This document shows positions 6,303-64,000 of a stretch of DNA of 64,000 nucleotides, piece by piece. The stretch's first letter is position 1. The number at the start of each line of letters is the position of its first letter. Source of the DNA: Euglena gracilis (taxonomy: Eukaryota). The notes below the pieces were generated by a model. It was given only the letters and a program-made list of their open reading frames with translations. It made no database searches and was not told where the DNA came from. The stretch is taken from assembly GCA_039621445.1 (NCBI GenBank), contig CP154954.1, forward strand, positions 30,012,395 through 30,076,394, given 5' to 3'. The translations under genes were made by a program, and so were the position numbers.

Positions 6303-8319
6303 ACTCTCCCATTGAAGGGGGGCACTTGAATGGTGTGTGCGCGAGAAATGAAAATTTTTTTGCATCTCCCACACTTTTCGGTAGACCGTGTGAGGACCAG
6401 GGGGGGGGGAAACACCACCAACACAAAACAAAAAAATTTGGTTGATATGGTGAGAAACAGCTTGGACGGTGAGAAGGGACCGGTGATTCAGAAAAGGTTG
6501 CTGAAGATGTTGCGTTGCTGTCAAAACCTGCAATGCAAGAAATTCGCATGGGCATCGCTAGAAAAGCAAAACCAAACAAGCAATCAAACAAGGAATCCAA
6601 CACAATGCAAAATCGAAGAAACTCAAATGTTCCTACCCCTGAAGTATGTGGCCTTAATCAAATGCACACCATGCCTATCGTTGTTTTTCATGTAATCAAC
6701 AATATCAAAACGTAAATTTTTGCTAGCCACATAATCCCTCCAATCCTTTGAGTATCGGTGGATAAATTTGTCAGGGGCTCCCAAGTTAAATCCTCGTACC
6801 CTCCCCATTTCACGAGAAATTCAAGTCTGCCAAATTTGTTGACTCGGTGCTTCAAAATTTTTTCAGCGTCCCATTCATCCAAACCCGAATCAAAATCCTC
6901 CTTGGTTGGTTAAAAATGAAGCATCTCCAATTTTTCATTGGCAAACTCATCCTCAAAATGTTGTTTCATTTGGCTACGGTGCAAGGAAATGACATGTCCA
7001 GGTTTTATTTCCACCTCGTAACTCAATTCCCCAATACGACTGACAATGGGACAGGGACCAACCCACCAACTTTGCATTTGTCGGCGGATAATCCCCTTGG
7101 ACGTAAAACCCAATCCTTTTGTCCAACCTGAAATGGACTTGGAACCTTACGATCATTATTCAAAGCCTCAAATTGCTTTTGGTGCAAGGCATTGAGAATA
7201 TCGGAGACCTTCTTGTCCAAACTCGAAATGTGCTCAAAAAAGGTTGATGCATCGGCACACTCGGGTCCTTGCAAAAAAGGAAGATCAGGTTGCAAAGGGT
7301 CGCGACCAAAAAGAATTTGGTACGGAGAAAAACCTGATTCACCTGGGGTTCTTTGCAAATGCTTGAGGGCAAGTGGCAAAACCTCCACCCAATTCATATC
7401 CACGTGTCGAGTCTGAATTTTCCTCATAAATTGCTTCAAAGCCTTACCCGCCACTTCAGCCCTACCATTGCCTTGGTGGTACCCCGCGTGACAAAAAGTG
7501 TTTTGAACCCCAAATGGCCGCACAACGTTCTCCAAAAAGCAGCTGCAAATTGGGGTCCAACCACCCTTGGGACACCAAACAATGATGCAAAAGGGTTTGT
7601 TTTGCCACTCGTTTTGCGGTGAGACCCACTCTTGATTAGGGAAATGCCACAACCCACCCACTGTGGCGATCAACAATGACAACCATACAATTATAAAAAA
7701 CATCCACCGCAATGTTATCCATGGGAATGGGGGGTATGGGTGTGGGCTTCAATGGAAGTTTGTTGCTTTCATGCAAATGATTGTTGGCTTGGCAGATTTC
7801 ACATTTTTTGTTGATCTCCCAACACAACAAACGACCTCTTGATTTGTCGGGGAGGACATACCGCCTCAAAAGTTCCATAAATAATTTTTCTCGGCCCGTA
7901 TGCCCATGAACCAAATGGAGTTCGTGAACCAAAATGGAAGCAAAGTTGTTGGCACATACAATTTTGTCTCGAAAAACGAAAAATCACCGTGCCTTTGGAA
8001 ACCAATGGGCCACTCACTTGCAGAATTTTGGACCTTTTCCCATGAATCCCTGAAAATTGGACACATTGCATAAGCACTTGGCCAGTTTCTGTCAAACACA
8101 TTTCCGACATCAAGCACGGGAGAGGGGCCAACATCCAAAGTCATACCACGACCTTGAGTCGGTAAATTGTTCCCCAAATTTGAAGTTGACGACGGTCAAG
8201 CACTTGAACCAAATTGTCCATCTTGAGATAAATGAGAATTGGCATCGTTTGAGTTGGGATGAACCTGTGGGAGGGGGACAGAAACTTTTTTTCCTTTTCT
8301 TTTGCCATAGCACGAGTTA

Positions 8320-9385
8320 TGGCTGCCACCCTTTGAGGTTTCCCTGTGAGCAAATATTCAATGAGCAAGGGGGGACTCTCTATTTCATTCTTATTGAAGG
8401 TTGGGACCCCAACCCCCCAAGCCATTGTCTATGGTGCTTTCTCCCACGTGGCAGGGGGGGGGGAAATTATGCGGTCCGCATTATTCCGCATTATTCCGCA
8501 TTTTTCCGCATTTCCGCATTATTCCGCATTATTCCGCATTTTTCCGCATTTTTCCGCATATTTTCCGCATTTTTTTGTAAATTTTCCGCATTTTTCCGCA
8601 TTTTCGCATTTGACCGCATTTTTTCCGCATTTTTCCGCATTTTTCCGCATTTTTCCGCATTTTTCCGCATAATTTCCGCATTATCCCGCATTTTCCGCAT
8701 TTTTCCGCATAATTACTGCATTTTTTCCGCATAATTTCCACATTTTTCCGCATAATTTCCGCATTTTTTGTGAATTTTTTACGTTTCAGGTCGACTACGA
8801 GGTTCATTGTTTCCCCAATATGTTGGGGCACAAGTGCTCGTCTTTTCATCTCTCTGTTTTATACATAATTTGTGCTTTGTTTTTCCATTGCATTTTGGTG
8901 ACTTCTGGCAAGCTTGGGCATCAGCGATGGGAATCAAATAGCATCGGGACCCTGCATATTGTGAGGTAGAAATATATCTATCCTCTCCATGTGACCTGGG
9001 ACTCCACAGAATTTCGGCATGTTTTCCGCATTTTCCGCATTTTTCCGCATATTTTCCGCATTTTTCCGCATAATTTCCGCATTTTTTCCCCGCCTGCCAG
9101 ACCGCATAATTTCCCCCCCCCCCCCCCTGCACGTGGACCCACTACCATTTCGGAACATTCATTTGGATTGCAAAGCACATTCTCCAAAGACCTTATTGAA
9201 TCGGGACCCCAAATTCTGGTTGGTTTTTTGTATCCATAATTCTCAAACCTACAATAATCCACATCAATGTTGGAAATTTCTTTCATGAACTTTTGATTCC
9301 GAAGTAACCCAAAACGTGGATTTTCAATGAACCATTTGGCAGGTTTGAAAAAGGAAATGATCTCCAAAGTTTTCTTTGCCAAACA
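8320..9385 (-). pseudogene. C5 cytosine DNA methyltransferase-like C-terminal half inside the Gypsy pol, split by a MITE
   Basis: KTLEIISFFKPAKWFIENPRFGLL (motif VI ENP), VDYCRFENYGYKKPTRIWG (motif VIII-like) and, past the MITE, PPLLIEYLL (motif X-like). Motifs I-IV absent. Confidence 0.75.
8452..9129. mobile_element. MITE with CAGGG TIRs, 7-bp TSD and subterminal ttttccgcat arrays
   Basis: TIR cagggggggggggaaattatgcggtc / gaccgcataatttcc..cctg; cacgtgg duplicated at 8445-8451 and 9130-9136. Confidence 0.92.
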
Positions 9386-9508
9386 ATTAGCACCCTTTTC
9401 ACATAACGGATTTCAAGTTTTAATTTTGAAAGCAACAAATGCCAACGGGCTCTTCGGCCTGTTGGACCACCAGGCATTTCCAAATCCTCGGTCAAAATAC
9501 TAATTTTA

Positions 9509-11152
9509 CAGCCGGGACCCAGAGATATTGAAACTTTCGGACAAATAATTGAAACTTTTGGACAAAGTTATTGAAACTTTTGGACAAAATTATTGAAACT
9601 TTTGGACAAAGTAATTGAAACTTTTGGACAAAGTTATTGAAACTTTTGGACAAAGTTATTGAAACTTTTGGACAAAGTTATTGAAACTACCAAAAAATTT
9701 TGGTAGTTGGGGGGAACTCTGCTGGACCTCCCCTGGGGGGCGGAGGATGCCTGAGGCTGGAATGGCTTGGAGCAGGCCGGGAGGGACAGGTAGATTTTGC
9801 TTCTCCACCAACTAGGATTTCTGAGTCATGGCCAGTCCCCCCCAGGACTCAAAAACAGCTTTTCTGGGTCCGGGAGGCCAAAGGGGGTCACTGAGCTCTT
9901 ATACCTTTGTGGGTGAGAGCGAAGCTTACCACCGGGAAAGGGGTTGTTTGACCCCCCGCCCCCCCCCCCCCGCCCGCCCCTGGGTAAGACCGCGAAAACT
10001 GCAGATTATTACCATGATCTCGGCTCCGTTCCCATAATTTTTTTTGAGTCACAAGCGACTGGAGTTTCTGAATAACCTCCGTTTGACCCACAACTCCTCG
10101 CCAGGCCCAAGTTATTCACCCGCGAAGGGGTCCAAACTGGGTAGGATTTGCCACCCCCCCAGTTTCGACTCTGCCATTTCGCCGGGGTAAGATTATCGGT
10201 CAAAAAAGTTGATTTTTCGAAAATATTTCGAGAAATGTACATTATTTCCGGAAGTGTCGGTCTGACAAAATGTGCCCCTGGAGGCCTTCTATCACCCCCC
10301 ATTCGCCATTTTGGCTGCCGACACGCCTGGCCCCTGTTACCGCGCGCTTTTGTGGCCGAAAACAGCCATTTTGGAGTGTTTTGGGGCCATTTTTTTTCGT
10401 CAAAAAAATCGATTTTTTTTTCAAAATATCTCGACAATGAAGCAAAATCAAAGAAAATATCCGGAGAGCAAAGTGAAGCCCTTGGAATGCCCTATCCAAC
10501 CATGGCTGCATGGGTTATTTCCCCCCCCAACTCTTCGTGTAACCCAAGTTACGACCATTTTTCGGCTAATTTCGGCCATTTTGTGCAGTTTTGGCTAACC
10601 CGAGCATGAGATAAGGTTGGGGGGGGGAAGATCGGGGGGAGGGGGAGATCGGGGCGGTCAACAAATTTCTTTTGGCAAACCCTGGCCCGGACCCTGGACC
10701 TGGACCGGGGATGGTGAGGGGCCCAACTCACCATTCTTTGCCCCGCTTCCAAATGTGAAATTGATGGGGTTCTGTGAGGGCACTGGTTTTTTCCCCTTTG
10801 CCTGCGGTTGCCTGTTGGAACTGCACATGCTTTTTTTTATTTGGAGGAATGGTGTGATTGTCGTCAAAATTGGACGGTATTCTGATGAACCAAACTGACC
10901 AAGTGTCAAACAAAGTGAAGTGTTTAAAGGCATGGGAATACATTTTAAAAACAATGTGAGGACTTCCTCAGTTCATGTGATTATTTTTTTTGGTAGTTTC
11001 AATAACTTTGTCCAAAAGTTTCAATAACTTTGTCCAAAAGTTTCAATAACTTTGTCCAAAAGTTTCAATAATTTGTCCAAAAATTTCAATAATTTTGTCC
11101 AAAAGTTTCAATAATTTTGTCCAAAAGTTTCAATAACCCTGTCCACTCACTG
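9509..11152. mobile_element. Non-autonomous TIR element (Tc1/mariner-like, TA-flanked) with inverted 22-bp arrays
   Basis: ta|cag...ctg|ta ends; ttattgaaacttttggacaaag ~7 times at 9526-9687 and ~6 inverted copies at 10996-11135; another repeat family nested inside. Confidence 0.7.
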
Positions 11153-41748: not shown

Positions 41749-44623
41749 GTCGCACTCCCAAAACAGACCAAGAGGGGAGGAAGGGACACCGAGGGCGAAG
41801 CACAAAAACCGAGTGAGGCCATGCCTTGTTTGCCCGCCGTTTGAGCGTGAATGTTTTTGGGTAGGCTAGGCCTTTCCCCTTTAGAGCTGCGATTTTGCCG
41901 GACTTGGCTGGCTCGTCGCTCCGGCGCGGACGGTTCCTAGGGGAAGGCACCTTCCTGGAGCCGCCCCCCCAGGTTTTTCAGGGACGGCAGGGTGGGCTCG
42001 CTTGGTGTTTGTGCTTCGCCCTCGGTGTCCCTTCCTCCCCTCTCGGTGTGCCTCGGGGGGAGACACCTCGGACTCCGGGGAAGAATGATCAAGGAGGCAG
42101 GGACAGCGAAGGCGGAGCACAAGACAGCAGTGAGGTCCTGCTCTTCTTTCCGGCTGTTGTTTGTGTTTTTGGTGTTGGTTGTGGTGTGTCGTCCTGCGAT
42201 GAGATGTCCGAGTAGGCGGACTCGGAGACGGTGTCGGACTTCTCGGTGGCTCGCGGCGGCGGGTTGCTGGCCTGTCTTTGGGTGAACTGGAATTTCTTGG
42301 GGGGGGAGGGCTCCCTTACTGAATTTTTTGCTCTTTTCCGGGTCGGGGGGGGGGGGCGGGCTCACTGTTGTCTTGTGCTCCGCCTTCGCTATCCCTTCCT
42401 CCTGGATCATTCTTCACCGGAGTCCGAGACAGCTCCGGCTCCGCACAAGACCCCAGTGAGGCTTTGTGCACCATTTTTTGGACAGCAACCCCCCGCCTTT
42501 TTACCCGCTGCCAAGCGCAAATAATGGGAAGAAAGGGCTTGCACATTTTTCCATTTTCCAATCTGGCACACCTCCTCGGAGGACAAACCTGCCAGTTTAT
42601 AAATGTACACTCCTGCCCCCCTGGTGGAGTGGGGGGCCCACTGGGAGGGTACCCCATGTTTATCCAACAATCGTTGCGTCAAACTCCCAATGGTTTTAGC
42701 AGACAGAGGGGGAGGGGTAAAAGGGGGTTTTAGACTTAACAACAGAGGTCCCCCTCGGGGAGTACTGTGTGATGTCAAACTGACATATTTTTTCATGTTG
42801 AACCAGGGGCAAATATTTGGACATGAAGGAATCTGGGGTATTTCCTCCCACTGAGTTTGTCTCCAACCCTTTCTTTGGACAAGAACAAAAACCTTGCCAT
42901 CAAACTGGGACACTGTCCTGAAGGTTCTTCTCAAGTCCACTGAACGATGCAAACAGATGATTCTGAAACTTAAAATGACCTGGTCTCTCAGATCACTGAG
43001 GCACTCTGGGGGAGGTGCTGCTGCCAATTTCTGAAGTAATGACCCAGGATTCCAAAATCAAGAATACCTGGGGGTGGATGTGTTCCATTTTCTTTTGTAG
43101 GGGGCCAACAGGGGTAAAAACCTTAACATGTGAAACCCAGGAAGCTGTACCACAGCACTATAAGCATTCCTGGCTTGAGCCACACTGAAGGTGAAAATTT
43201 TAATGATGCCAGAAGCGACGAATTCTGGGTTCATGGTGTTGAGGTCCATCTGGGACATGGCCAAAACTCCCCACAGGAGTCTGAAGGCGAATCATATCTT
43301 GCCAAGGACAGATTTTGACTTAAGAAATTATCAACCACTGAGGGGGGGATCTGTTGCTTCTGTAACAACTGCCTGACAACAAAATGCGGGCTAGGTGCCA
43401 TCTTGGCTTTTTCATGGGCTGCCCGTGACAATTCTCGAACATGTGGTGGCAAGACAGAATTCTCAGGGCTGGTGTATGTGGAATGTGAAGTTTTATTAAC
43501 AGGGGCCACCACACATCTGAAACCCACAGGGGGCAAATCAGAAGGCATTTTAGATGTCTGTGTTCCTTTAATCTCAGGACCCACTGGCTCAGGACAGACC
43601 AGGGGGGGTTTGCATAAATCTCTGAGAACATGTCCAGAGGGTAGTTCAAACTGTCTGTGGCCACAGCCTGAAAATAGGGCCATCGACTCATAAACTGAGA
43701 AAGTTTGTGATTCCCTGGTGATGCAAACATGTCCACAGTTGGGTTTATGAATTGCTGGAAAATGTGCATGACTTTTTGAAAATGAAAGGGTGTAAACTGT
43801 AATCCCCTGAGTCGAAGTGCCATCTGCTGATGGCATCGCTTTTCATGCTTTGGGAGGGGGCCCAGTGAACTTGGAGGGTGATGCCCATTTCCATACACCA
43901 CTTTGAGAAAGGGTCTGATGAGTTTGTTCAGGTGGGGTAGCCTGCCCACCCTTTGAGAAGATAGTAGTAGGAAACTTTGTTGTCCACTGTTAGGGACACT
44001 GTGTCCTTTTTCCTGGCCAAAGACCTTACAGTGGAGATGGCTGAGATCAATTGTTTTACATTGATATGTAAATGAAAGTCTTTTCGCCAAAATTCTTGTA
44101 ACTGGGTTCCAGCTTGTAGGTCAAGGCCTCCCCAACCAAAGGTTGAACTGTCTGACTCCAGGTGTCTGGTGGTTGGGCTTGGGAAGGGTCTCCCCCCTCA
44201 GGTCTGCAGAATTTCCCTGACATCTTGCAGTTGAGATTTGACCTCCTCTGGGATTGGAACCTGATGATCCCAGCCAAACTTTTCTTGTAGGTTGACAAAA
44301 CCTACCAAAGTGTCTGTGAATGCCCTGAGGAAGGGCAGCCCCACCAAGAAGCTTCTTATGCATCCCAAAATTGAGGCCATTTTCCTGCAACTGAGGGACT
44401 GGTGTGTGACTAATTTCCCCAGTTCCCTCCGAACCATTTTCAGTTTTTCTGTCCCCAACTGCAATTTTCCCTGTGCCAGATTGAGGTGGAACCCCAGATG
44501 TGGGAGATTTTGGGTGGGTTGAAGGAGTGGCACGGCAAACAGTACATCACTTTGCAGCAGTGTATTCTGGCAAGATCTTGGATTGCTGTGTTGGGAAGTG
44601 TGATTTTGAAAATTCAAATTCAA
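41749..44623 (-). mobile_element. DIRS1-like retrotransposon, 3' half: RT/RNase H, adenine MTase, tyrosine recombinase, terminal repeats
   Basis: HLGFHLNL..MASILG (RT thumb); VDMFASPGNHKL..YANPPW (N6-MTase); LHRSVDL...APHSTRGAG...IGKWK..HYL (YR catalytic residues); inverted repeats at 41749-42427. Frameshifted. Confidence 0.92.
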
Positions 44624-62675: not shown

Positions 62676-64000
62676 GTCGGACTCCCACGACACAGGAAGG
62701 GGGAGGAAGTGACCATGAGGGCGAAGCACAAGAAGATGGTGAGCCCAACCCCCCCACCCAAAAAATCAGCAAAAAAGGAAAAACATCCCGACCAGTGGGG
62801 TACGATCAACAGACAATGCAGGTCTGGGTTTACAATTAATCTCTGAACCCACTGGGGAATGATGCTCCAGGGGGGGTTTGCATAAACTGGGGGGAGATCC
62901 CTCAAGTCTGCCCTTAAGGCATCCACCAGCAAAGCCCCTTGGGGGGTATCGACAAACGACCTTGGGGAATTTTTTGTTGCTGGGTGTGCAAAACATGTCC
63001 ACCTCTGGGGTTATGTCCTTTCTGAGAAATTGCAGACTTTGTGAAAGATGTTTAGGTTTAGGGTATAATCCCCTGGGTCCTTTTGCTCCCTGGTTAGGGA
63101 GTCTGCCAATTGCTCCTTTGTTGGAACCCAAACCACCTGCAAGTTGATTTGCTTCTCCTGGCAATGATACAGCAGGGGTTTTAAGATAGATTGAGGTAGG
63201 GCCTTTGCCTCCCCACTTTGTGAAATAACTTACAGCCACCTGGCTGTCCACATGAAGCACAATTGTTTGCTTTGGCTTGGCCAGTGCTTTTACAGTTTCC
63301 ACTGCAGCCTGCAACTCTTTTTGGTTGAATTAAGGAGATGCAGGTTCCCCCAACAATCCTGTACCTTTTTACCTGAATCTTTGTCCAGCCCCCCCCATTT
63401 CCAGGTGCTGCTGTCTGAAAAGAGTTCCTGAGAGGCCTGGGATTGAAATGCCCTGCCAAACCCTGGCTGTAAAAATGTTTTCAACTCCACAATTTGATCT
63501 TTGACCCCCTGGGGAATTATCAGGGTGTGGTCCCAACCCCACTTGGTGTGCAAATCCACCATTTTGCAAAGTTGATCTGTCAGAATTCTGAGAAATGGCA
63601 TGGAGACTAAAAAGCTTCTGACCTGCCCAACAATAGAACTGAGTTTTTTTGCAGCTCATTTTTTGTGCTGTGAGCACCTTCCCTAGCTGCTTTCTTAAGG
63701 ATTTTAATTTTTCCTGAGGAATTTCCAGTTGGCATTTTTTCAAATTGATACACTGGCCCAAATGCCTTATTTCCTGTGTGGATTCCAAACAGGATTTGGG
63801 AAGGTTTAATCTGAACCCTGCCAGTAAAAGGTCCTGTTTTATTTCTGCCAAATGCTGGGCTGCTGTCTTTTTGCTGGGGGTAACAGCAAAATGTCGTCCA
63901 GGTCGATGAAAACTACCTTTCCCTCCTTTCTCCATTTCCTTTCCCAGACTCTCATGAGAGTCATAAATTTTTGTGGAATCCTGCTGATGCCAAAGCATGC
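62676..64000 (-). mobile_element. Decayed DIRS element (RT C-part, RNase H, adenine MTase), running off the window
   Basis: AGFRLNLPKSCLESTQEIRHLG; LFSDSSTWKWGG; LHVDSQVAVSY; VDMFCTPSNKKF; VYANPPW; terminal motif at 62676-62742; YR apparently deleted. Confidence 0.9.

What the first reader, a model, noticed from the sequence alone, without database searches (positions are those of the whole stretch)
6700..9495. Chromodomain Gypsy retrotransposon carrying a C5 cytosine methyltransferase between RNase H and integrase
Seen: on one strand, RNase H tail, then WFIENP...VDYC..YGYKKPTRIWG...PPLLIEYLL, then HHCC integrase, then chromodomain. Known: ENP and these downstream motifs mark C5 DNA MTases, and DNMT-carrying retrotransposons have been reported in dinoflagellates and charophytes. 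Inference: a similar capture in a euglenid-like genome, with the MTase inside pol and paired with a chromatin-reading chromodomain. This copy is decayed and lacks motifs I-IV.
Basis: partly seen in the sequence, partly recalled or inferred. Interest (0 to 1): 0.72.

Follow-up and report, generated by a model that had tools for sequence, protein, structure and literature searches.

The report
Decayed retrotransposon carrying a cytosine methyltransferase
This is a broken, truncated copy of a jumping gene whose intact relatives carry their own DNA cytosine methyltransferase between the RNase H and integrase parts. A 2026 preprint has already described this kind of element, so the locus is a confirmed example and not a new discovery.

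Summary
On the minus strand, 6689-9492 reads RNase H tail, C5-methyltransferase (DNMT) motifs VI-VIII, the DNMT C-terminal helix, HHCC integrase and chromodomain. This is the same order as in intact single ORFs from elsewhere: P0003, P0006 and P0181, with P0106 compatible.

The window copy is dead:
- It is 5'-truncated at about 9492.
- A deletion of about 166 aa removes the RNase H end, the linker and DNMT motifs I-IV.
- A 678-bp MITE is inserted at 8452-9129.
- It has several frameshifts and stops, and it has lost the second catalytic Asp of the integrase.

Contigs from public runs of the same coded organism bridge the MITE site. They also continue into unlike sequence at the deletion and at the truncation.

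The DNMT is a compact domain of about 210 aa. It has FxGxG, PC, ENP and KPTRIW motifs and a predicted C5-MTase fold. It resembles small stand-alone viral methyltransferases far more than DNMT1 or DNMT3.

In 28 of 32 relatives where position can be judged, the DNMT lies upstream of RT, often next to a Dam-type adenine methyltransferase. The RH-DNMT-IN position occurs at three separate places in the DNMT tree.

A May 2026 preprint already describes Euglena "EpiLTRs" carrying DAM, DNMT and a chromodomain. Verdict: a new member of a known kind, of moderate to low interest.

The parts
9397..9492 (-). C-terminal tail of the RNase H domain of Pol. The retroelement remnant is cut off at about 9492 on its 5' side.
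   Evidence: tblastn to P0003 145-176 (72% identity) and P0006 73-104 (84%). Contigs of the same organism run on beyond 9492 with unlike letters that read as the RNase H motif TDHRSLENW (table 7).
9392..9398 (-). Junction of an internal deletion of about 166 aa (about 0.5 kb). The deletion removes the RNase H end, the linker and DNMT motifs I-IV, and it shifts the frame.
   Evidence: P0003 residues 177-342 are missing. Loose ends on both sides of 9392/9398 in runs X1 and X7 read ...YVKGEKNNLADGL and ...DIAY|ANCLAKK, which continue both domains (table 7).
9134..9391 (-). Middle of the C5-DNMT domain: the helix after motif IV, motif VI (WFIENP), motif VIII variant (YGYKKPTRIWG) and the start of the short target-recognition region (LCNPNEC).
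   Evidence: Family profile E 6e-42. Identity is 72% to P0001, 82% to P0002 and 58% to P0003.
8452..9129 (.). MITE of 678 bp inserted in the DNMT target-recognition region. It has CAGGGGG... terminal inverted repeats, internal 10/21-bp tandem repeats, and a target duplication CACGTGG at 8445-8451 and 9130-9136.
   Evidence: Contigs in X16 and X17 skip 8448-9132 (685 nt) (table 5).
8368..8445 (-). Rest of the DNMT target-recognition region (GRKHHRQWLGG...). It is in frame with 9134-9391 once the MITE is removed, and it contains one stop codon.
   Evidence: tblastn to P0001 200-225 and P0003 411-455.
8318..8374 (-). C-terminal helix of the DNMT (PPLLIEYLL, the counterpart of motif X), reached by a frameshift.
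   Evidence: tblastn to P0001 224-233 and P0006 383-401. It aligns with the family's conserved R-[IV]-P-x-x-L-[IV]-x-Y-L.
7582..8162 (-). Integrase N-terminal region and HHCC zinc finger. It has one frameshift, one stop and an 11-aa deletion.
   Evidence: Pfam Integrase_H2C2 E 0.0011. tblastn to P0003 549-753.
7029..7585 (-). Integrase catalytic core and downstream region. It has further frameshifts and a 4-aa deletion that removes the second catalytic Asp (SDQG in P0003).
   Evidence: tblastn to P0003 756-944. The contigs that bear on each site carry 12 and 7 extra letters there (7557, 7579) and single extra letters at 7507, 7075 and 6763 (table 4).
6689..7098 (-). SH3-like domain, chromodomain (6766-6909) and the C-terminal tail of Pol. 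It has one stop and one frameshift.
   Evidence: Pfam Chromo E 7e-10. tblastn to P0003 922-1058 and P0006 872-1008, 54-77% identity.

Best explanation
Window 6689-9492 (minus strand) is a dead, 5'-truncated copy of a Ty3/gypsy chromovirus-type LTR retrotransposon. In this family the Pol polyprotein carries a compact C5 DNA cytosine methyltransferase domain of about 210 aa between RNase H and integrase, and the integrase ends in a chromodomain.

Shown:
- the domain order;
- homology to intact single-ORF relatives;
- the C5-MTase fold and catalytic motifs in those relatives;
- the lesions of this copy;
- the existence, in the same coded organism, of copies without the MITE and with sequence where this copy has its deletion and truncation.

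Inferred (not tested): in intact copies the DNMT is made as part of Pol, next to or fused with the integrase-chromodomain. It then methylates cytosines of the newly made or newly integrated element DNA, while the chromodomain steers integration to marked chromatin. The element would thereby set its own epigenetic state in a CpG-methylated genome. The copy in this window can do none of this.

The family belongs to the Euglena-type 'EpiLTR' group (DAM + DNMT + chromodomain LTR elements). The window's subfamily is the variant with the DNMT after RNase H instead of before RT.
For: - Order and homology. tblastn of P0003 and P0006 covers RH tail, DNMT, IN, SH3 and chromo collinearly.
- Intact ORFs with RH-DNMT-IN. 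These are P0003 (1060 aa), P0006 (1009 aa) and P0181 (2215 aa; DAM, degenerate DNMT, RT, RH, intact DNMT, IN); P0106 (DNMT-IN-SH3-chromo) is compatible.
- DNMT identity, by sequence. Pfam PF00145 scores above its cut-off in P0001-P0003. The profile hits PDB DNMT1 at E 6e-6, with motif I and motifs IV-VI aligned. All 12 of 12 aligned domains hit phage DNA-methyltransferase families phrog_757 and phrog_363 (best E 1.8e-19).
- DNMT identity, by structure. The AlphaFold2 model has pLDDT 82.8 and pTM 0.82. The top Foldseek hits are DNMT1, DNMT3A/B and M.HhaI (E about 1e-7, probability 1.00).
- Conservation. The motif I glycines, the motif IV Cys and the motif VI Glu are invariant, and the Arg of KPTRIW is conserved in at least 90%, across 12 domains that are 35-59% identical to the first.
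- Same-organism copies. Joints skip the MITE, and loose ends at 9392/9398 and 9492 read on into DNMT and RNase H sequence. Extra letters sit at the positions of the window's frameshifts and deletions.
- Family context. Of 32 relatives whose DNMT position can be assigned, 28 have it before RT and 4 after RH. Many also carry Pfam Dam.
- Published counterpart. See sections 7-8 of bioRxiv 10.64898/2026.05.21.726589.
- CpG observed/expected is 0.53 against GpC 0.88 across the window. This fits a CpG-methylated genome.
Against: - The window's own DNMT pieces get no Pfam, NCBIfam or PDB sequence hit. The assignment rests on relatives.
- There is no RT, protease, gag or LTR of this element in the window, so 'LTR retrotransposon' is inferred from Pol homology.
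- Whether the window's subfamily carries DAM is unknown, because P0003 and P0006 start inside RNase H.
- No enzymatic activity, substrate (DNA or RNA), sequence specificity or Pol processing site was tested.
- Some of the window's single-base frameshifts may be assembly errors and not decay. Every contig that covers 6763 carries the extra letter, and nearly all of the contig depth does at 7075 and 7507 (table 4).
- Those contigs are assemblies of a repeat family, and their depth is not a copy number.
Confidence: 0.85

Rival explanations
1. Chance juxtaposition: a fragment of an unrelated methyltransferase gene, or a nested insertion, happens to lie between two remnants of a gypsy Pol.
For: The copy is broken at both DNMT borders: a deletion at 9392-9398 and a frameshift at about 8374. 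The 2026 preprint warns of nested insertions and chimeric elements in Euglena.
Against: Three intact ORFs that share only 40-57% identity (P0003, P0006 and P0181, as compared with P0003) keep RH-DNMT-IN in one frame, and the more distant P0106 (36%) keeps DNMT-IN-chromo. The window is collinear with them. Same-organism contigs continue from the RNase H tail and from the DNMT into the deleted part.
Confidence: 0.03
2. The domain has the C5-MTase fold but does not methylate DNA. It could be an RNA m5C methyltransferase acting on the element's RNA or a tRNA primer, or a structural pseudo-enzyme within Pol.
For: DNMT2/tRNA methyltransferases also appear among the PDB profile hits (E 0.014-0.022). 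The target-recognition region is very short, about 45 aa. Motif VIII is a variant (KKPTRIW, not QxRxR), and there is no GN of motif X. One relative, P0181, carries an extra copy that has lost PC and ENP. An earlier scan note reports a catalytically dead DNMT fold at the same Pol position in a diatom element.
Against: The catalytic Cys (PC), the Glu of ENP and the FxGxG motif are invariant in 12 divergent domains. The strongest sequence matches are to phage DNA methyltransferase families, and the strongest fold matches are to DNA-bound DNMT1, DNMT3 and M.HhaI.
Confidence: 0.1
3. It is a remnant of an endogenised virus, a small viral methyltransferase gene, and not a retrotransposon module.
For: 291 IMG/VR stretches encode relatives that are 29-37% identical. 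Of the 80 loci kept, 17 have an NCLDV capsid gene and mostly a PolB gene beside it. The nearest ESM Atlas clusters are viral.
Against: The window piece is 58-82% identical to retroelement-borne domains and falls inside a starred clade of them. In the FastTree, none of the 82 viral-contig rows falls on the retroelement side of the supported split. RNase H and integrase flank the piece directly.
Confidence: 0.02

Closest known systems
Euglena gracilis (and Cymbomonas tetramitiformis) 'EpiLTRs' (bioRxiv 10.64898/2026.05.21.726589). I saw the abstract, sections 7 and 8, and passages. I did not see the figures or supplements.
   Same: These are Ty3/gypsy-like LTR elements with a chromodomain and a Pol-encoded cytosine DNMT. 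The window's relatives also carry Pfam Dam domains, for example P0008 (DAM-DNMT-RT-RH-IN-chromo) and P0181. The window itself holds weak Dam-like remnants elsewhere.
   Different: - The window's subfamily has the DNMT between RNase H and integrase, whereas most relatives have it before RT.
- The text I could read gives no domain order for Euglena. For Cymbomonas it places the DNMT at the 3' end of pol.
- DAM cannot be checked in this truncated copy.
- The preprint places the DNMT as sister to DNMT4. I could not test that, and I find much closer similarity to small viral methyltransferases than to DNMT1/DNMT3 structures.
KnitGypsy-Dnmt3 of Klebsormidium nitens (PMC5890265, section 9 read)
   Same: It is a gypsy-type Pol polyprotein that includes a C5-DNMT with conserved catalytic residues. 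The idea of self-methylation of retrotranscribed DNA comes from this work.
   Different: That DNMT is of the Dnmt3 type, with a eukaryotic origin. The one here is a compact domain of about 210 aa whose best sequence matches are phage methyltransferase families. The section I read mentions no chromodomain or DAM.
SymbioDIRS-Dnmt3 and SymbioLINE-Dnmt of Symbiodinium (PMC5890265, section 6 read)
   Same: These are retrotransposon-encoded DNMTs. The SymbioDIRS families likewise differ in domain order within Pol.
   Different: They belong to other retrotransposon classes (DIRS with a tyrosine recombinase, and LINE ORF1). Their DNMT lineages are different too.
Compact stand-alone C5-methyltransferases of viruses (phrog_757 and phrog_363; genes of about 200-260 aa on phage-like and NCLDV contigs)
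   Same: They share the size, the motif set (FxGxG, PC, ENP, Y-x-KPTR-I-W) and a short target-recognition region. They are 29-37% identical over nearly the whole domain.
   Different: The viral ones are single genes. The retroelement-borne domains form their own supported clade (100/95) and are embedded in Pol.

Membership tests
C5 cytosine DNA methyltransferase (Pfam PF00145) | Motif I FxGxG (AdoMet binding) | tested here: not met
   It is deleted in the window copy. It is present in the relatives: LDLFSGQGS in P0003, P0001 and P0002, and its glycines are invariant in 12 of 12 domains.
C5 cytosine DNA methyltransferase (Pfam PF00145) | Motif IV Pro-Cys (catalytic cysteine) | tested here: not met
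   It is deleted in the window copy. In the relatives it reads S-[VIP]-P-C-E-x-[YF]-S, and the Cys is invariant in 12 of 12.
C5 cytosine DNA methyltransferase (Pfam PF00145) | Motif VI ENV and motif VIII QxRxR | tested here: met
   The window has WFIENP and YGYKKPTRIWG. These are variants (ENP; only the last Arg of motif VIII is kept) shared by the whole family. Naming these motifs as VI and VIII rests partly on recall and on the HMMER alignment to DNMT1.
C5 cytosine DNA methyltransferase (Pfam PF00145) | Score above Pfam's gathering cut-off | tested here: inconclusive
   The window pieces get no hit. Relatives score as follows: P0001 24.3, P0002 30.7 and P0003 27.1 bits against a cut-off of 22, but P0006 scores 17.2 and P0004 19.7, both below it.
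C5 cytosine DNA methyltransferase (Pfam PF00145) | C5-MTase fold | tested here: met
   The test used the P0003 domain, not the window copy. The model has pLDDT 82.8. Foldseek finds 189 PDB matches at E <= 0.001, and the top ones are DNMT1, DNMT3A/B/C and M.HhaI.
Ty3/gypsy chromovirus | Pol order RT-RNase H-integrase with a C-terminal chromodomain | tested here: met
   The RH tail, HHCC, integrase core, SH3-like domain and Chromo (E 7e-10) are collinear. RT is absent from this truncated copy but present in the relatives P0181, P0008 and P0012.
Ty3/gypsy chromovirus | Long terminal repeats, primer-binding site and polypurine tract, target duplication | not testable with these tools
   The copy is 5'-truncated and no whole genome is held. 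No second copy lies in the window.
EpiLTR (DAM + DNMT + chromodomain LTR element, 2026 preprint) | Cytosine DNMT and chromodomain in one LTR-element Pol | tested here: met
   for the window. for P0003 and P0006.
EpiLTR (DAM + DNMT + chromodomain LTR element, 2026 preprint) | Dam-type adenine methyltransferase in the same element | not testable with these tools
   The 5' part is missing here, and P0003 and P0006 start inside RNase H. P0181, which has the same RH-DNMT-IN order, has Dam at residues 22-109. P0187 and P0188 have Dam but no DNMT.
Dnmt3-type retrotransposon DNMTs (KnitGypsy-Dnmt3, SymbioDIRS-Dnmt3) | DNMT domain branches within eukaryotic Dnmt3 | not tested
   No Dnmt3 reference sequences were available for a tree. 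Indirect evidence argues against it. The best PDB profile hits are to DNMT1 at only E 6e-6, with no DNMT3 chain among the 60 listed. Phage families score E 1e-17 to 1e-19.

The most novel reading that the evidence does not exclude
The DNMT module of these elements was captured once from a compact, virus-type stand-alone methyltransferase, and not from a canonical host DNMT family. It has since been moved within Pol at least two or three times: before RT, beside DAM, or between RNase H and integrase. P0181 would be a caught intermediate, with a degenerate upstream copy and an intact downstream copy. In the RH-DNMT-IN-chromo arrangement of the window's subfamily, the enzyme may be delivered as a methyltransferase-integrase-chromodomain fusion that methylates DNA at the site of integration.
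Probability: 0.3. Interest if true: 0.6.

Novelty: new member of a known kind. Interest (0 to 1): 0.3.

Why it matters
Retrotransposons that bring their own DNA-modifying enzymes show that mobile elements can write the host's epigenetic marks as well as suffer them. This locus adds little as a copy, because it is dead and a preprint already describes the kind.

The relatives gathered here add three points that could be followed up:
- One homologous compact DNMT module sits at different places in Pol, in different lineages of the DNMT tree.
- One element carries two copies of the module, one of them degenerate.
- The module's nearest non-element relatives are small viral methyltransferases.

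These points bear on how such 'epigenetic toolkits' are assembled, and on whether the enzyme acts together with the integrase.

Tried and rejected
- Direct Pfam, NCBIfam and PDB sequence searches with the window's own DNMT pieces found nothing.
- No whole genome is held for this window, so full-length copies, LTRs and copy counts could not be obtained.
- There is no second copy of the element or of the MITE in the window.
- An Rfam scan of the window at gathering thresholds gave 0 matches, so it gave no clue to the host.
- Earlier scan notes for this genome: none.
- Sequencing runs: no RNA holder is listed. Six runs are only guessed to be RNA, and contigs from two of them cover the element. 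This is not usable as evidence about expression.
- I looked for the missing RT and RNase H beyond the 1.6-kb repeat-bounded element at 9520-11145. tblastn with all 29 relatives held at that point found none.
- The JGI metagenome scan gave retroelement context at 10 of 80 loci, and none of them had the RH-DNMT-IN order.
- The preprint's claim that the DNMT is 'sister to DNMT4' could not be checked. No DNMT4/RID sequence was available, and bioRxiv supplements and figures are closed.
- CpG-context decay: of the 15 listed sites where the window has A or T and the contigs have G or C, 6 are CpG in the contigs. The sample is too small and too selected to build on.
Full report
**What is in the window**

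On the minus strand, stop-to-stop frames and the raw sequence show the following, in this order:
- an RNase H tail at 9492-9397;
- a stretch with WFIENP and VDYC..YGYKKPTRIWG at 9391-9134;
- an insertion;
- PPLLIEYLL at 8374-8318;
- an HHCC integrase at 7974-7582;
- an integrase core at 7585-7029;
- a chromodomain at 6909-6766.

Pfam confirms the chromodomain (E 7e-10) and, weakly, the integrase zinc finger (E 0.0011). It gives nothing for the two methyltransferase-like pieces. NCBIfam and a PDB sequence search also give nothing for them. No second copy lies in the window, and no whole genome is held.

**Relatives settle the identity**

A search with the 93-aa piece 9134-9412(-) among longer proteins found five relatives.
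- P0001 (72% identical) and P0002 (82%) pass Pfam DNA_methylase.
- P0003 (58%, 1060 aa) is one ORF with RNase H, DNA_methylase, Integrase_H2C2, rve, an SH3-like domain and Chromo, in that order.

tblastn lays the window on P0003 and P0006 collinearly:

| P0003 residues | Window coordinates |
|---|---|
| 145-176 | 9492-9397 |
| 343-423 | 9397-9155 |
| 411-455 | 8490-8371 |
| 549-945 | 8162-7026 |
| 922-1058 | 7098-6689 |

A profile of 12 relatives' domains (A1) hits the window ORF 8981-9412(-) at E 6e-42, over profile positions 89-175 of 223.

**Lesions of this copy**

- It ends at about 9492. Beyond that lies a 1.6-kb element bounded by inverted arrays of a 22-bp repeat, and no RT or RNase H is found anywhere else in the window.
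- P0003 residues 177-342 (the RNase H end, the linker and DNMT motifs I-IV) are missing at 9392-9398, with a frame change.
- A 678-bp MITE lies at 8452-9129, in the DNMT's target-recognition region. It has perfect 23-nt terminal inverted repeats and a 7-bp target duplication. The frame continues across it once it is removed.
- There is a stop and a frameshift before the DNMT C-terminal helix.
- The integrase has at least four frame changes, stops, an 11-aa deletion, and a 4-aa deletion that removes the second catalytic Asp.

**Other copies in the same organism**

Twenty public runs of one coded organism, from 16 studies, hold 0.32-0.56 of the stretch's sampled words. I laid the contigs of four of these runs on 6400-9800, with these results:
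- Two contigs, from X16 and X17, join 8447 directly to 9133. These copies lack the MITE.
- Contigs that end at 9392 and at 9398 run on into unlike sequence. That sequence reads as the continuation of the DNMT (..DIAY|ANCLAKK) and of the RNase H tail (YVKGEKNNLADGL).
- Contigs at 9492 run on into sequence reading TDHRSLENW, which is RNase H.
- Contigs carry extra letters exactly where the window has its 12-nt deletion and its frameshifts (6763, 7075, 7507, 7557, 7579, 7930).

So less damaged copies exist. However, since every contig covering 6763 and nearly all contig depth at 7075 and 7507 carries the extra letter, some of the window's frameshifts could be assembly errors. Contig depth is very high on the MITE and is in the hundreds to thousands on the element, but the tool warns that depth is not a copy number.

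**The methyltransferase domain**

The domain spans about 210 residues. Across 12 domains that are 35-59% identical to the first, the conserved columns include the following:
- the glycines of LDLFSGxGS;
- the Cys of PPC-x-x-[YF]S;
- the Glu and Pro of ENP;
- D-Y-C;
- Y-x-K-P, with the following T-R-x-W conserved in at least 90% of the domains;
- two cysteines of a short C-x4-C region.

Evidence for the C5-MTase assignment:
- The A1 profile finds DNMT1 chains in the PDB at E 6e-6, aligning motif I and motifs IV-VI.
- An AlphaFold2 model of the P0003 domain has pLDDT 82.8 and pTM 0.82.
- Foldseek's top hits for that model are DNMT1, DNMT3A/B/C and M.HhaI, at E about 1e-7 and probability 1.00.

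The sequence similarity to viral enzymes is much stronger than to these:
- All 12 domains hit phage DNA-methyltransferase families phrog_757 and phrog_363, best E 1.8e-19.
- The nearest ESM Atlas clusters are viral proteins of 219-288 aa, with scores of 0.95-0.96 (a lead only).
- In IMG/VR, 291 stretches encode relatives. The 80 loci kept are 29-37% identical over almost the whole domain.
- Across the 160 loci of both collection scans, 21 carry an NCLDV major capsid gene and mostly a family B polymerase gene beside the DNMT: 17 IMG/VR loci and 4 metagenome loci. Others are phage-like, with Pol III alpha, NrdD or T4 RNA ligase.

A profile search of 1.84 billion representative proteins gives 7335 hits at E <= 0.001 and 770 at E <= 1e-30. 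Many are proteins of about 200 aa.

**Where the module sits in relatives**

I combined the Pfam scans with a local profile search. The DNMT position relative to RT, RH and IN could be assigned in 32 proteins.
- In 28 it lies upstream of RT. Examples are P0008 (DAM-DNMT-RT-RH-IN-chromo), P0012 (DNMT-PR-RT-RH-IN-SH3-chromo) and P0004 (DAM-PR-DNMT-RT-RH-IN).
- In 4 it lies after RNase H: P0003, P0006 and P0181, with P0106 compatible (DNMT-IN-SH3-chromo, N-terminus missing).

P0181 (2215 aa) has Dam, then a degenerate DNMT-like domain lacking PC and ENP, then RT and RH, then an intact DNMT, then the integrase zinc finger.

Of the 80 metagenome loci, 10 show retroelement domains beside the DNMT. 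In the 6 that reach RT, the DNMT is upstream of it.

**Trees**

The first tree was a FastTree of 333 domain rows. Rows covering fewer than 140-150 profile positions were left out, and the window's 93-aa piece was included.
- It has a split (SH-like support 95) with 147 rows on one side.
- That side holds all 50 rows labelled as retroelement-borne or window-like, and none of the 82 viral-contig rows.
- The window piece falls in a 7-row set (support 99) with P0001, P0002 and both rows I take to be P0003 and P0006 (the output gives group labels only).

The second tree was a careful IQ-TREE of 61 rows that I chose. It held all labelled rows except the long-branched P0181a and the window piece, plus 13 non-element rows.
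- The element-borne domains form a clade (100/95).
- The window-like set P0003, P0006, P0001, P0002, P0101 and P0070 forms a clade (100/99).
- P0181b is sister to L084, a DAM-PR-DNMT-RT element (100/97).
- The RH-DNMT-IN label needs three changes, and well-supported branches force all three.

So either the module moved more than once, or elements exchanged it. The root is not inferred, and no canonical eukaryotic DNMT family was in the tree.

**Comparison with print**

I ran three full-text searches.
- De Mendoza et al. 2018 (PMC5890265; abstract and sections 6 and 9 read) describe SymbioLINE-Dnmt, SymbioDIRS-Dnmt3 and KnitGypsy-Dnmt3. They also showed that retrotransposon DNMTs can methylate CG de novo.
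- The preprint 10.64898/2026.05.21.726589 (abstract, sections 7 and 8, and passages read) describes 'EpiLTRs' in Euglena gracilis and Cymbomonas. These are LTR elements with DAM, DNMT and a chromodomain. The DNMTs form one group placed as sister to DNMT4, and the E. gracilis genome is heavily CpG-methylated.
- The text I could read gives no domain order for the Euglena elements. Figures and supplements could not be seen, so I cannot say whether the RH-DNMT-IN variant or a two-DNMT element is shown there.
- In PMC12344493 I saw passages only. They mention 'orphan' eukaryotic DNMTs of viral origin.

Its weak Dam-like remnants, its CpG depletion and the architecture of its relatives fit the published Euglena picture. 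That fit is inference, not a test.

**How it most likely works**

Shown: in intact relatives the DNMT is translated as part of Pol, and it keeps the residues needed for AdoMet binding and for cysteine-mediated catalysis.

Inferred:
- The DNMT methylates the element's own new DNA, or DNA at the integration site.
- In the window's subfamily it may remain attached to the integrase-chromodomain.
- The chromodomain directs integration to marked chromatin.

The copy in this window is a fossil with no possible activity.

**Verdict**

It is a new member of a known kind, and the interest of this locus is moderate to low. The repositioning of the module, and its kinship with compact viral methyltransferases, are the parts worth following.

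Noticed in passing
window 43338-43772 (-) and 62789-63145 (-): There are weak remnants of Dam-type adenine methyltransferase domains like those of the DAM-carrying relatives. tblastn gives E 2e-5 to 9e-3 at the first place and 1e-3 to 2e-3 at the second. Pfam Dam scores E 8.9e-5 for the first, below its cut-off. The second contains a stop and was not scanned. No RT or integrase of the gypsy type lies beside them.
   Followed up: partly
window 8452-9129: This MITE has G-run terminal inverted repeats and internal 10/21-bp tandem repeats (TCCGCATTTT). Summed contig depth on it in the laid runs is 100-fold or more above the flanks, so it belongs to a very abundant repeat family. There is only one copy in this window.
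   Followed up: partly
window 9520-11145: A 1.6-kb stretch is bounded by inverted arrays (7 copies each) of a 22-bp repeat, at 9526-9688 and 10995-11145. It abuts the truncated 5' end of the retroelement and is probably a non-autonomous DNA element.
   Followed up: no
P0181 (2215 aa, not in the window): This single ORF has two DNMT-type domains. The upstream one (312-484) has lost PC and ENP. The intact one (1078-1286) lies between RNase H and integrase. The ORF also has an N-terminal Dam domain.
   Followed up: partly
P0131 (479 aa, not in the window): A PHD finger (Pfam E 4e-10) is fused to the same compact DNMT domain, with no retroelement domains. It may be a cellular gene using this methyltransferase type.
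   Followed up: no
L001-L007, L010, L027-L030, L034, L042, L047, L049, L050, L135, L136, L139, L142: In 21 viral or metagenome loci, the compact DNMT gene lies within 5-10 kb of an NCLDV major capsid gene and usually a family B DNA polymerase gene. This is a conserved neighbourhood in algal-virus-like contigs.
   Followed up: partly
P0187, P0188 (not in the window): These DAM-RT-RH-IN-SH3-chromo elements are 52-56% identical to P0003 and P0006 in the RNase H region. Between RNase H and integrase, where P0003 has its DNMT, P0187 has an acidic, low-complexity linker of about 470 aa. P0188 has a gap of similar length there, which I did not inspect.
   Followed up: no
whole window: CpG observed/expected is 0.53, against 0.88 for GpC. 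The range is 0.43-0.73 per 8-kb block.
   Followed up: no
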